A DNA stretch of 64,000 nucleotides from Escherichia coli. GTDB lineage: Bacteria; Pseudomonadota; Gammaproteobacteria; Enterobacterales; Enterobacteriaceae. The position numbers were made by a program. Shown here one piece after another: positions 24,001-27,000 of the stretch (within the stretch, counting starts at the first letter, position 1; every line of letters begins with the position of its first letter). The stretch is taken from the NCBI RefSeq assembly GCF_048403405.1, contig NZ_CP183129.1; one strand, 5' to 3'.

Positions 24001-27000
24001 TTGATCACTTTCTCTTTCCAGGTACGAATCTTGTCGATATCGGTTTTCGGTTCGCCGAAGACGATACCGTGTTCAGCCAGCGCTTTGGCTTCTTCGATAA
24101 CTTTTGCTACGTGCAGCAGTGCTTTAGAAGGGATACAGCCGACGTTCAGGCAAACACCGCCAAGGGTGTTGTAACGTTCTACGATTACGGTTTCCAGACC
24201 TAAATCAGCGCAACGGAAGGCAGCGGAGTAACCTGCGGGGCCTGCCCCAAGTACCACGACCTGAGTTTTGATTTCAGTACTCATCATGACCTCTATATAT
24301 TTATCTCCGGCGGTCATACCCGTCGTCTTTCAGGCCGCAGCGGCGTTAGCTTCACGCCCTCACCCCAGTCACTTACTTATGTAAGCTCCTGGGGATTCTG
24401 GCGCTTGCTACCTTGCTGCACCCAGAAATCCATAGGGTATGTGAAGTAATACCCTAACCACCACCGGGTCGTTCTATCCGTCGGTATTTTACAAAATTGT
24501 TAACAATTTTTAAACAACAAACGGCAACCGATTTGTCTATTCGCTAATAACCTCAATACATTCATGAGATTACCAGAAAAAAGCCGGCCGTTGGGCCGGC
24601 TCTTTTACTTACATCACCAGACGGCGAATGTCAGACAGCGTGTTGTTAATGATGGTAATGAAACGGGCACCATCAGCACCGTCGATCACGCGGTGGTCGA
24701 AGGAGAGAGAAATCGGCAGCATCAGACGCGGCACGAACTCTTTACCATTCCACACCGGCTCCATCGCGGACTTGGAAACGCCGAGGATAGCCACTTCCGG
24801 CGCGTTCACAATCGGCGCGAAGTGGGTAGTACCCAGGCCGCCGATGCTGGAGATGGTGAAGCAACCGCCCTGCATTTCGCCCGCAGTCAGCTTACCGTCA
24901 CGCGCTTTCTTAGAAATAGTCATCAGCTCGCGAGACAGCTCGATGATGCCTTTCTTGTTGACGTCTTTGAATACCGGAACAACCAGACCGTTCGGGGTAT
25001 CCACCGCCACACCGATGTTGATGTATTTCTTCAGGGTCAGACGCTGACCGTCTTCCGACAGCGAACTGTTGAAGCGAGGCATCTGCTCAAGAGCTGCAGC
25101 AACCGCTTTCATGATGAAGACAACTGGGGTTATCTTCACATCCAGCTTACGTTTCGCCGCTTCTTCGTTCTGCTGTTTACGGAACGCTTCCAGCTCGGTG
25201 ATATCGGTTTTGTCGAAGTGAGTAACATGCGGGATCATCACCCAGTTACGGCTCAGGTTCGCACCAGAGATTTTCTGGATGCGGCCCAGTTCCACTTCTT
25301 CGATTTCACCAAACTTGCTGAAGTCCACCTTCGGCCACGGCAGCATGCCAGGGATACCACCGCCAGTCGCCGCCGGAGCCGCTTCTGCACGTTTGATAGC
25401 TTCTTTCACGTAAGCCTGAACGTCTTCGCGCAGGATACGACCTTTACGGCCAGTGCCCTTCACTTTCGCCAGGTTAACGCCAAACTCGCGTGCCAGACGG
25501 CGGATCAGCGGAGTCGCGTGAACGTAAGCGTCGTTTTCAGCAAATTCAGATTTGCCTTCGGCTTTCGCAGCCGGAGCTGCTGCTGGAGCTTCAGCTTTTG
25601 CTGCCGGAGCCGGCGCTGCCGCTTCCTGTTTCGCAGGAGCTGCCGCAGGCGCTGCGCCTTCAACTTCGAAGATCATAATCAGCGAGCCAGTTTTCACTTT
25701 ATCGCCAACGTTGACTTTCAGTTCCTTCACGACGCCAGCAAACGGAGCCGGAACTTCCATAGAAGCTTTATCGCCTTCTACGGTGATCAGTGACTGTTCA
25801 GCGGCAACTTTGTCGCCCACTTTCACCATCACTTCGGTCACTTCAACTTCGTCACCGCCGATATCCGGAACGTTAACTTCTTTCACGCCAGCCGCTGATG
25901 CAGGGGCCGCTGCCGGAGCCGCTTCCTGTTTAGCCGCCGGAGCTGCCGCGCCTGCTTCACCCGCGACTTCGAAGACCATAATCAGCGAGCCGGTAGACAC
26001 TTTGTCACCCACGTTCACTTTGATCTCTTTCACGGTGCCAGCAAACGGAGCCGGAACTTCCATAGAAGCCTTGTCGCCTTCTACGGTGATCAGCGACTGT
26101 TCAGCTTCAACTTTATCGCCAACTTTCACCAGGATTTCGGTCACTTCAACTTCGTCGCTGCCGATATCCGGAACGTTAACGTCTTTTGCCGCTGCAGCCG
26201 CTGGTGCTGCTGCCGGAGCGGCTTCTTTCTTCTCTTCTGCCTGAGCAGGTGCAGCGTCTGCTGCACCGTCGGCGGAATCGAAAATCATAATCAGTGCGCC
26301 GGTCTGGGTTTTATCGCCAACAGAGACTTTGATCTCTTTAACGATACCCGCCTGCGGAGATGGTACTTCCATAGAGGCTTTGTCGCCTTCTACGGTGATC
26401 AGCGACTGTTCGGCTTCAACTTTGTCGCCCACTTTGACCAGGATCTCGGTGATTTCAACTTCATCAGCCCCGATGTCCGGTACTTTGATTTCGATAGCCA
26501 TTATTCTTTTACCTCTTAAGCCAGACGCGGGTTAACTTTATCTGCATCGATGTTGAATTTGGCGATTGCGTCAGCAACCACTTTCTTATCGATTTCGCCA
26601 CGTTTAGCCAGTTCGCCCAGCGCCGCAACCACGACATAAGAAGCATCAACTTCGAAGTGGTGACGCAGGTTCTCACGGCTGTCGGAACGACCGAAGCCAT
26701 CAGTACCCAGTACGCGGTAGTCGTCAGCCGGTACGTAAGTACGGACCTGCTCAGCGAACAGTTTCATATAGTCGGTAGATGCCACTGCCGGAGCGTCGTT
26801 CATCACCTGAGCGATGTATGGAACGCGCGGAGTTTCCAGCGGGTGCAGCATGTTCCAGCGTTCACAATCCTGACCATCACGCGCCAGCTCTGTGAAGGAG
26901 GTCACGCTATAAACGTCAGAACCTACGCCGTAATCTTTCGCCAGGATCTCTGCCGCTTCACGGACGTGACGCAGGATAGAACCGGAGCCCAGCAGCTGAA

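What the first reader, a model, noticed from the sequence alone, without database searches (positions are those of the whole stretch)
25541..26501. Nucleotide-level triplication of the aceF lipoyl domain
Three direct repeats of about 300 bp with Ala/Pro-rich linkers form a substrate for homologous recombination; lipoyl-domain number is known to be tolerant to change. Strain-specific copy number could be read directly from assemblies.
Basis: established knowledge. Interest (0 to 1): 0.2.

Follow-up and report, generated by a model that had tools for sequence, protein, structure and literature searches.

The report
Triplicated lipoyl domain of aceF
This is the textbook three-fold repeat of the lipoyl "swinging-arm" domain in the E. 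coli pyruvate dehydrogenase gene aceF; public genomes show it does occasionally lose or gain one copy by recombination, but more than 99.8% of complete E. coli genomes keep three.

Summary
aceF (window 24609-26501, minus strand) starts with three direct repeats of 303-309 nt, each a lipoyl domain plus an Ala/Pro linker. This has been known since 1983.

Nucleotide identity in the domain cores is 87% for lip2/lip3 and 77% for lip1 against either. Only lip2/lip3 exceeds what protein conservation and codon bias predict.

Among 5,423 complete E. coli genomes with aceF:
- Seven carry intact two-domain alleles of three junction types.
- One carries an out-of-register 64-aa deletion.
- None shows a one-domain or four-domain allele.
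- About four genomes with an odd linker-2 region are unresolved.

Junctions in the hybrid domains fall in the lipoyl-lysine core, where the repeats share identical tracts of 20-33 nt. The same two-domain proteins occur on hundreds of draft contigs and on many aceE haplotypes, so the deletion recurs. Some short-contig cases may be small-k assembly artefacts.

Four-domain alleles, mostly perfect 282-309-nt tandem duplications, occur in a few E. coli drafts and two complete Salmonella chromosomes.

Verdict: a known feature, a correct interpretation, and rare copy-number variants held down by selection. Low interest.

The parts
24609..26501 (-). aceF coding sequence (630 aa), the E2p dihydrolipoyllysine-residue acetyltransferase of the pyruvate dehydrogenase complex
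   Evidence: ORF. Pfam finds 3x Biotin_lipoyl, E3_binding and 2-oxoacid_dh. It is 100% identical to the annotated aceF of strain TUM14771.
26274..26501 (-). lipoyl domain 1 (aa 1-76; lipoyl-lysine K41 in GDKAS)
26187..26273 (-). Ala/Pro-rich linker L1 (aa 77-105)
   Evidence: Length variants in other strains.
25965..26186 (-). lipoyl domain 2 (aa 106-179; K144)
25884..25964 (-). Ala/Pro-rich linker L2 (aa 180-206)
25662..25883 (-). lipoyl domain 3 (aa 207-280; K245)
25524..25661 (-). long Ala/Pro-rich linker L3 (aa 281-326), which contains its own 33-nt sub-repeat
   Evidence: Tandem Repeats Finder gives period 33 at 25556-25636. Family D2.
25416..25523 (-). peripheral-subunit (E3) binding domain (aa 327-362)
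   Evidence: Pfam PF02817.
24612..25307 (-). catalytic acetyltransferase core (aa 399-630; DHRVIDG active-site motif)
   Evidence: Pfam PF00198. Translation.
26380..26411 (-). 32-nt tract GAACAGTCGCTGATCACCGTAGAAGGCGACAA, lip1 copy. It is identical to the lip2 copy at 26071-26102 and is the crossover zone for lip1/lip2 recombinants.
   Evidence: Junctions.
26071..26102 (-). lip2 copy of the same 32-nt tract
26037..26069 (-). 33-nt tract GCTTCTATGGAAGTTCCGGCTCCGTTTGCTGGC, lip2 copy. It is identical to the lip3 copy at 25734-25766 and is one of the crossover zones for lip2/lip3 recombinants.
   Evidence: Junctions.
25734..25766 (-). lip3 copy of the same 33-nt tract

Best explanation
The region is the N-terminal half of aceF in the pdhR-aceE-aceF-lpd operon of E. 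coli. It encodes three tandem lipoyl domains, each carrying the lipoylated lysine in a GDKAS turn. Flexible Ala/Pro linkers join the domains to each other and to the E3-binding and catalytic domains.

From established knowledge, the lipoyl domains act as swinging arms that carry acetyl and reducing equivalents between the E1, E2 and E3 active sites.

The array arose by tandem duplication, and it is still shaped by DNA-level exchange:
- lip2 and lip3 are kept more alike than orthologues of E. coli and Salmonella, which points to gene conversion.
- The repeats share identical tracts of 20-33 nt around the lipoyl-lysine codons.

Homologous exchange out of register by one repeat unit, in these tracts or at short homologies in the linkers, removes or adds exactly one domain-plus-linker unit (282-309 nt) in frame. 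One allele instead has a 192-nt deletion between the two VGDKV half-repeats. This yields two-domain alleles and, less often, four-domain alleles.

Because one domain suffices for catalysis, such alleles are viable. Because fewer domains cost growth rate and yield, and perfect duplications revert easily, they stay rare and three domains predominates.

Shown here: the repeat anatomy, the identical tracts, the recombinant alleles and their junctions, and their frequency. Inferred: RecA dependence, the direction of selection, and the gene-conversion history.
For: Anatomy.

Identical tracts: 32 nt (lip1/lip2); 33, 21, 21 and 20 nt (lip2/lip3).

Two-domain alleles in complete genomes:
- 01_3327 and 03_3013 have a 1584-nt, 527-aa allele with a lip1/2 hybrid.
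- Rb-50, VTB97379v, C2 and C4 have a 1590-nt, 529-aa allele with a lip2/3 hybrid.
- DSM 103263 has a 1587-nt, 528-aa allele in which lip2 is excised by an L1/L2 crossover.
- Strain 463 has a 192-nt out-of-register deletion between the two VGDKV half-repeats of lip2 and lip3.
- Pfam counts 2 or 4 lipoyl stretches in the variant proteins.

Junction intervals in the hybrid domains cluster at domain nt 60-156.

Recurrence:
- The alleles sit on many aceE haplotypes, up to 44 differences per 2.5 kb. These include at least 7 haplotypes on complete chromosomes or contigs longer than 1 Mb.
- The exact 527-aa protein is on 454 contigs and the 529-aa protein on 182.

Four-domain alleles:
- They are perfect 309-nt or 303-nt tandem duplications plus the shared tract.
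- In L003 the junction lies in a 5-nt interval that no k-mer graph could create.
- Complete Salmonella chromosomes CP075029.1 (perfect 282-nt duplication through the linkers) and CP006575.1 also carry four domains.

Concerted evolution:
- dS is 0.37 for Eco lip2-lip3 and 0.31 for Sal lip2-lip3. Orthologue dS is 0.31-0.57.
- Identical codons at conserved residues number 52 of 64, against 33.9 expected.

Literature on tolerance and cost.
Against: - No four-domain allele was found in 5,423 complete E. coli genomes. The E. coli expansions therefore rest on draft and metagenome assemblies.
- Junctions at the longest shared words are also what a small-k de Bruijn-graph error would produce. Most contigs carrying the 527-aa allele are 2-20 kb.
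- The sequencing technology of the 'complete' genomes could not be checked.
- The dS comparison rests on 73 codons and one Salmonella strain.
- About four complete genomes that lack a normal L2 region were not resolved.
Confidence: 0.9

Rival explanations
1. The copy-number variants are assembly artefacts. The three repeats share 31-33-nt words, so assemblers using small k take a shortcut (false two-domain allele) or go round the loop twice (false four-domain allele). The real architecture would then be invariant.
For: - The identical tracts are 32-33 nt, just above k=31.
- Most junctions lie in them.
- The 527-aa allele is mostly on 2-20-kb contigs from metagenome, Logan or MEGAHIT-type assemblies.
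- Several four-domain proteins from ENA metagenomes are visibly chimeric between species (P0002, P0007, P0016, P0023).
- No expansion was found in complete E. coli genomes.
Against: - Eight complete chromosomes carry contractions of four different kinds.
- The 529-aa allele also sits on contigs of 2.9-5.3 Mb with distinct haplotypes.
- Two independently sequenced isolates, 01_3327 and 03_3013, and the draft behind locus L032 share one allele and one aceE haplotype.
- The DSM 103263 and Salmonella CP075029.1 junctions use only short linker homology (12 nt measured in CP075029.1). L003 uses a 5-nt interval, and strain 463 joins the two VGDKV motifs. None of these could come from shared long k-mers.
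Confidence: 0.07
2. The DNA repeat is only a shadow of protein-level conservation plus strong codon bias in a highly expressed gene. No DNA-level process such as gene conversion or recent duplication maintains it, and recombination between the copies is incidental.
For: For lip1 against lip2 or lip3, nucleotide identity is 77.2%. That is barely above the 73-74% expected from protein identity and operon codon usage (fractions of simulations reaching the observed value: 0.07 and 0.02). dS is about 0.9, close to saturation.
Against: - lip2/lip3 identity is 87.2% against 77.5% expected, and identical codons number 52 of 64 against 33.9. No simulation out of 3000 reaches either value.
- The paralogue dS of 0.31-0.37 is not larger than the orthologue dS of 0.31-0.57, although both species have all three domains.
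- Identical runs of 32-33 nt are longer than simulated (fractions reaching the observed value: 0.005 and 0.001).
- Mosaic residues such as Salmonella lip2 'VM' and lip3 'TVKEIK' are visible.
Confidence: 0.12
3. Lipoyl-domain number is an adaptive, frequently switching trait (a contingency-type locus). Strains would tune PDH capacity or lipoate demand by gaining and losing units.
For: Deletions recur on many haplotypes. At least one allele is shared by several isolates. Domain number differs between bacterial lineages, and endosymbiotic Serratia lost one or two domains.
Against: Only about 0.15% of complete genomes deviate, and none shows an expansion or a one-domain form. The hosts and sources of the eight strains show no common theme: human, cow, chicken, sputum. 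Published work shows a growth cost for fewer domains.
Confidence: 0.03

Closest known systems
E. coli K-12 AceF (E2p) with three tandem lipoyl domains (Stephens et al. 1983; Guest et al. 1985)
   Same: Same gene, same operon and same 630-aa architecture. The gene is 98.5% identical in nucleotides to K-12 derivatives. [quoted passage not shown]
   Different: Nothing of substance. There are a few synonymous and linker substitutions, for example ...PASAAG... in this window against ...PAPAAG... in several other strains.
Engineered E. coli PDH complexes with altered numbers of lipoyl domains (Guest laboratory; Dave et al. 1995)
   Same: The natural two-domain alleles found here (527-529 aa) have the same kind of architecture: whole domain-plus-linker units removed in frame. 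Natural four-domain alleles correspond to the engineered expansions.
   Different: These arose spontaneously in wild or clinical isolates, by crossover in the identical tracts or the linkers, rather than by restriction-site deletion in vitro. Their physiology has not been measured.
AceF of Serratia symbiotica endosymbionts, which lost one or two lipoyl domains (Manzano-Marin and Latorre 2016, PMC5013485)
   Same: Natural reduction of lipoyl-domain number within a group of related Enterobacterales, judged harmless because one domain suffices.
   Different: There the loss is fixed in lineages undergoing genome reduction. Here it is a rare polymorphism within a free-living species.
E2p proteins of other bacteria with one, two, three or four lipoyl domains
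   Same: Same domain grammar. Among the 150 best 50%-identity representatives the lengths fall into classes of about 410-450, 500-580 and 610-690 aa. Seven of the longest (643-779 aa) were scanned with Pfam and have two to four lipoyl stretches.
   Different: A review gives the range as one to three (PMC6270654). P0122 (779 aa, 46% identity) and the E. coli and Salmonella variants with four stretches lie outside that range.

Membership tests
2-oxo acid dehydrogenase E2 component, pyruvate type (AceF/E2p) | One or more N-terminal lipoyl domains with the lipoyl-lysine in a DKA turn | tested here: met
   Three PF00364 stretches, E = 1.7e-67. GDKAS at aa 39, 142 and 243, which places the lysines at K41, K144 and K245.
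2-oxo acid dehydrogenase E2 component, pyruvate type (AceF/E2p) | Peripheral-subunit (E3/E1) binding domain between the lipoyl domains and the core | tested here: met
   PF02817 at aa 327-362, E = 1.9e-16.
2-oxo acid dehydrogenase E2 component, pyruvate type (AceF/E2p) | C-terminal acyltransferase core with the DHRxxDG active-site motif | tested here: met
   PF00198 at aa 399-629, E = 2.4e-80. ...[12 protein letters not shown]... is in the translation.
2-oxo acid dehydrogenase E2 component, pyruvate type (AceF/E2p) | Operon context pdhR-aceE-aceF-lpd | tested here: met
   ORFs for PdhR, AceE (887 aa), AceF and Lpd lie in this order on the minus strand. The matching genomes carry the same annotated order.
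2-oxo acid dehydrogenase E2 component, pyruvate type (AceF/E2p) | Lipoylation of the three lysines and acetyl transfer activity | not testable with these tools
   Biochemical property. Established for the K-12 protein in the literature cited.
Tandem direct repeats acting as a substrate for homologous unequal exchange | Head-to-tail direct repeats with a constant in-frame period | tested here: met
   Periods of 309 and 303 nt, both multiples of 3.
Tandem direct repeats acting as a substrate for homologous unequal exchange | Uninterrupted identity at least as long as the minimal efficient processing segment for RecA-dependent exchange (about 23-27 bp, from general knowledge) | tested here: met
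   32 nt (lip1/lip2) and 33 nt (lip2/lip3), plus tracts of 20-21 nt.
Tandem direct repeats acting as a substrate for homologous unequal exchange | Existence of deletion and duplication alleles whose junctions lie inside the shared tracts | tested here: met
   Deletions. Duplications with exact self-identity of unit length plus tract.
Tandem direct repeats acting as a substrate for homologous unequal exchange | Dependence of the events on RecA, or on replication slippage for the short-homology junctions | not testable with these tools
   Needs genetics: recA+ against recA- deletion frequencies.
Contingency or phase-variable repeat locus | High-frequency reversible copy-number change, giving common polymorphism among close relatives | tested here: not met
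   Eight variants among 5,423 complete genomes. None has more than three copies, and all changes are in frame.

The most novel reading that the evidence does not exclude
Heritable two-lipoyl-domain aceF alleles circulate in natural E. coli. They arise again and again by exchange at the 20-33-nt identical tracts. At least one is carried by several independently sequenced isolates (01_3327, 03_3013 and the draft behind locus L032), yet it is hidden from protein databases because NCBI's pipeline labels it a pseudogene. In addition, four-domain E2p chains exist in Salmonella and E. coli isolates, which is beyond the 'one to three' range stated in reviews. If these alleles change PDH flux or lipoate demand, they would be a natural experiment on why E. 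coli keeps three domains.
Probability: 0.6. Interest if true: 0.3.

Novelty: already known. Interest (0 to 1): 0.2.

Why it matters
The feature itself is textbook. The survey adds a number to an old question: why three lipoyl domains, when one is enough? In nature the array does contract, in about 1 of 700 complete genomes and recurrently. It expands only rarely. Three copies still dominate, which fits the published growth cost of fewer domains.

There are also practical consequences:
- Intact two-domain alleles are annotated as pseudogenes, which can mislead gene-content and metabolic-model pipelines.
- The 32-33-nt shared words make this region a small trap for low-k assemblers.
- Named, obtainable strains now exist for testing the physiology of natural two-domain complexes: DSM 103263, C2, C4, Rb-50, 01_3327, 03_3013 and VTB97379v.

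Tried and rejected
1. Counting variants by query coverage failed. With the whole gene or the 961-nt repeat region as query, the search tool joins off-register pieces. Deletion alleles therefore still reach 80% coverage or more. I replaced this with synthetic or real hybrid-domain queries and linker-centred queries.

2. Thirty-three genomes gave no megablast match to the L1-centred query and looked like possible deletions. A word-11 search showed that 31 of them simply have a divergent linker at 80-90% identity. Only the two known Δ309 strains lack it.

3. Strain CUPF06, with 82% coverage of the L1 query, was suspected of a lip2 excision. It has only a 21-nt linker deletion, and its aceF is 1872 nt.

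4. Strain 210205630, with 93.8% identity to the lip1/2 hybrid, was suspected of a conversion allele. It is an ordinary 1893-nt gene with a few substitutions.

5. One-domain (lip1/3) alleles: none were found. The best match is the 94% wild-type cross-match.

6. Literature searches for natural aceF copy-number variation in E. coli found nothing. They did recover the classical references and the Serratia symbiotica case.

7. The L2-centred word-11 search cross-matches the other linkers, so it gave only an identity band. Ten genomes fall at 60-80% identity, of which six are explained. About four remain unresolved and may be the highly divergent Escherichia genomes seen.
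Full report
**What is there**

The window carries pdhR, aceE, aceF and lpd on the minus strand. 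aceF (24609-26501) encodes a 630-aa protein with three Biotin_lipoyl stretches, an E3_binding domain and a 2-oxoacid_dh catalytic domain. It is 100% identical to the annotated aceF of E. coli TUM14771 and 98.5% identical to K-12 derivatives.

The first 840 nt form three head-to-tail units:
- The repeat finder reports three 300-nt copies spaced 303 and 309 nt.
- Tandem Repeats Finder reports period 303, 2.7 copies, 80% matches and score 896.
- The alignment has 83% mean column identity.
- Shuffled sequence gives about 26% identity.

In window coordinates the units are lip1 26274-26501, L1 26187-26273, lip2 25965-26186, L2 25884-25964, lip3 25662-25883 and L3 25524-25661. The lipoyl-lysines lie in GDKAS turns at K41, K144 and K245.

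**How 'nucleotide-level' the repeat is**

I re-drew synonymous codons for each domain from the codon usage of aceE, lpd and the 3' half of aceF. The expected identity for lip2/lip3 is 77.5 +/- 1.9%, and the observed value is 87.2%. Identical codons at conserved residues number 52 of 64, against 33.9 expected. None of 3000 simulations reaches either value.

For lip1/lip2 and lip1/lip3 the observed identity is 77.2%, against 74.1% and 73.1% expected (fractions of simulations reaching the observed value: 0.07 and 0.02). The longest identical runs, 32 nt for lip1/lip2 and 33 nt for lip2/lip3, are longer than simulated (0.005 and 0.001).

Synonymous divergence tells the same story. dS is 0.37 for E. 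coli lip2-lip3 and 0.31 for Salmonella lip2-lip3. That is no larger than the orthologue values of 0.31-0.57, although both species have all three domains. lip1 stands at about 0.8-0.95 from the others. I read this as partial concerted evolution (gene conversion) between lip2 and lip3. lip1 appears to be held similar mainly by protein constraint. The inference rests on 73 codons and one Salmonella strain.

**Survey of complete E. coli genomes**

The collection holds 5,426 complete genomes, of which 5,423 carry aceF. Simple coverage thresholds do not discriminate, because the search tool joins off-register pieces. I therefore used three kinds of query:
- Real four-domain hybrid domains.
- 141-nt queries centred on L1 and L2.
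- Synthetic lip1/2, lip2/3 and lip1/3 hybrid domains.

The results for contractions were as follows.
- Strains 01_3327 and 03_3013 have a 1584-nt open aceF (527 aa) made of a lip1/lip2 hybrid followed by lip3. Their 6.7-kb loci are identical.
- Strains Rb-50 (human, Japan), VTB97379v (chicken, South Africa), C2 and C4 (cow) have a 1590-nt gene (529 aa) made of lip1 followed by a lip2/lip3 hybrid.
- DSM 103263 has a 1587-nt gene (528 aa). lip2 is excised by a crossover between L1 and L2 at the short homology GCTCCGGCAGC....
- Strain 463 has a 192-nt in-frame deletion joining the second VGDKV motif of lip2 to the first VGDKV motif of lip3. This is an out-of-register event between the two half-repeats of the domain.

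Pfam counts two lipoyl stretches in the 527-, 528- and 529-aa proteins.

No one-domain allele exists in the collection. No genome has a near-identical second copy of the L1 or L2 region, and none matches a four-domain hybrid above 95.8%.

Thirty-one genomes that failed the megablast L1 query have a divergent linker, not a deletion. About four genomes with an abnormal L2 region remain unresolved and may be the very divergent Escherichia genomes seen. One further genome, JCL301, is an engineered deletion strain.

The tally is 7 clean two-domain alleles, 1 partial deletion and 0 expansions in 5,423 genomes, or about 0.15%.

**Wider collections**

The exact 527-aa protein is encoded on 454 contigs and the exact 529-aa protein on 182. 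A 90% cluster of two-domain AceF proteins has 305 member sequences.

Among the loci fetched, the alleles sit on many aceE haplotypes, up to 44 differences per 2.5 kb. These include at least seven haplotypes on complete chromosomes or contigs longer than 1 Mb. The deletion is therefore recurrent. One haplotype is shared by 01_3327, 03_3013 and the draft behind locus L032, which suggests inheritance within a lineage.

Junction intervals, judged against the window's diagnostic positions, are at domain nt 89-122, 122-125 and 122-137 for lip1/2 hybrids. For lip2/3 hybrids they are at 60-71, 98-119, 119-122 and 122-156. All of these fall in or around the conserved [19 protein letters not shown] core, where the identical tracts lie.

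**Four-domain alleles**

These were found in the protein search at 723-735 aa:
- P0001 (E. coli drafts GCA_000358395.2 and GCA_019368795.1) is lip1, a lip2/1 hybrid, lip2, lip3.
- P0005 and P0014 are lip1, lip2, a lip3/2 hybrid, lip3.

At the DNA level most of these (L002-L007) are perfect tandem duplications of 309 or 303 nt. Their exact self-identity runs are 308-356 nt, which equals the unit length plus the shared tract. L008 has only an 83-nt run and may be a diverged or chimeric assembly.

The two P0001 loci have different junctions. One lies in the tract beginning at nt 90 (29 nt identical in that strain; 32 nt in the window). The other lies in a 5-nt interval between diagnostic positions 65 and 71. 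No k-mer graph error could produce the second one.

Two complete Salmonella chromosomes also have four lipoyl stretches:
- CP075029.1 has a perfect 282-nt duplication through the linkers with 12 nt of homology.
- CP006575.1 (S. Pullorum) has a more complex mosaic.

Several ENA metagenome proteins (P0002, P0007, P0016, P0023) are inter-species chimeras, and I discount them.

**Caveat on artefacts**

Because lip1/lip2 and lip2/lip3 share 32-33-nt words, assemblers working at k <= 31 can collapse or expand the array exactly at these tracts. Most contigs carrying the 527-aa allele are 2-20 kb. I therefore treat the contig counts as upper bounds.

I rest the claim on three kinds of evidence: the eight complete chromosomes, the multi-megabase contigs, and the junctions that do not coincide with long shared words. 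Sequencing technologies could not be checked here.

**Comparison with what is known**

- The three repeats and their DNA-level similarity were described with the original sequence (Stephens et al. 1983).
- One domain suffices for activity (Guest et al. 1985).
- The domains act redundantly (Allen et al. 1989).
- Lowering the lipoyl-domain content lowers growth rate and yield (Dave et al. 1995).

All four references are cited in PMC8421416, PMC5013485 and PMC10579247. Natural loss of one or two domains is documented in Serratia symbiotica. A review states a range of one to three domains per chain.

Among the best 150 representatives at 50% identity, lengths fall into classes consistent with one, two and three domains. 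Seven of the longest were scanned with Pfam. One 779-aa protein has four stretches, three have three, and three have two.

I found no paper reporting copy-number polymorphism of aceF among natural E. coli isolates. That is absence from an open-access library only.

**Mechanism and verdict**

The best-supported account has five steps:
1. A tandemly triplicated domain acts as three redundant swinging arms.
2. DNA-level homogenisation occurs between lip2 and lip3.
3. Short identical tracts around the lipoyl-lysine codons allow rare out-of-register homologous exchange. Linker microhomologies allow rarer slippage-type events.
4. The products are in frame and viable.
5. Purifying selection against fewer domains, and instability of perfect duplications, keep three copies in more than 99.8% of genomes.

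The asymmetry between many deletions and few duplications is expected. Intramolecular exchange and slippage give only deletions, and perfect 300-bp duplications revert readily. Collapse artefacts may inflate the asymmetry.

RecA dependence, the fitness effects and the conversion history are inferred, not shown.

The feature is already known, and the added value is a frequency estimate, named variant strains and an annotation pitfall. Interest is low, at 0.2.

Noticed in passing
window 22325-22598 (inside yacH, 20936-22789 +): yacH (DUF3300) contains a 96-nt (32-aa) tandem repeat, 2.4-2.9 copies at 83-91% identity. Its product is 572, 585, 587, 604 or 617 aa in other strains. This neighbouring gene shows much commoner repeat copy-number polymorphism than aceF.
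   Followed up: partly
window 24285-24608 (aceF-lpd spacer): The 324-nt spacer holds an ERIC/IRU-like element (...AATCCCCAGGAGCTTACATAAGTAAGTGACTGGGGTGAGGGCG...). In strains with a spacer of about 208 nt, a short unrelated stretch takes its place (both spacer lengths appear). It is a presence/absence polymorphism just upstream of lpd.
   Followed up: partly
L011 3201-4784 and L012 3201-4784 (NZ_CP074961.1, NZ_CP074958.1): NCBI's annotation pipeline labels the intact 527-aa two-domain aceF as a pseudogene ('incomplete; missing N-terminus'). The exact protein occurs on 454 contigs without any protein accession or name.
   Followed up: yes
aceF linkers; H54, H55, H113, H114; L042 3312-5183: Small in-frame linker-length variants occur among complete genomes: -12 nt, +9 nt, and -21 nt in L1 of strain CUPF06, whose aceF is 1872 nt. 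A set of 31 genomes has an L1 region only 80-90% identical.
   Followed up: partly
L001 3001-4701 (NZ_CP183105.1, strain 463): This is a 64-aa in-frame deletion between the two VGDKV motifs that mark the internal two-fold pseudo-symmetry of the lipoyl domain. It fuses most of lip2 to the second part of lip3 without a linker. Whether the fused module folds or is lipoylated is unknown.
   Followed up: partly
proteins P0036 and P0039: Two other internal duplications occur in E. coli AceF from public records. P0036 (680 aa) has a 50-aa tandem duplication of the E3-binding domain. P0039 (668 aa) has a 38-aa partial duplication inside lip2.
   Followed up: no
E. coli genome collection: Three records typed as plasmids carry aceF. 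Two complete genomes have no aceF match at all. The laboratory strain JCL301 keeps only the last 96 nt.
   Followed up: no
L010 3001-5178 (Salmonella Pullorum CP006575.1): This four-domain aceF is not a simple duplication. Its second and third domains are reciprocal lip2/lip3 mosaics, with exact runs of 173 nt at offset 297 and 117 nt at offset 591. This suggests either several exchange events or an assembly problem.
   Followed up: partly
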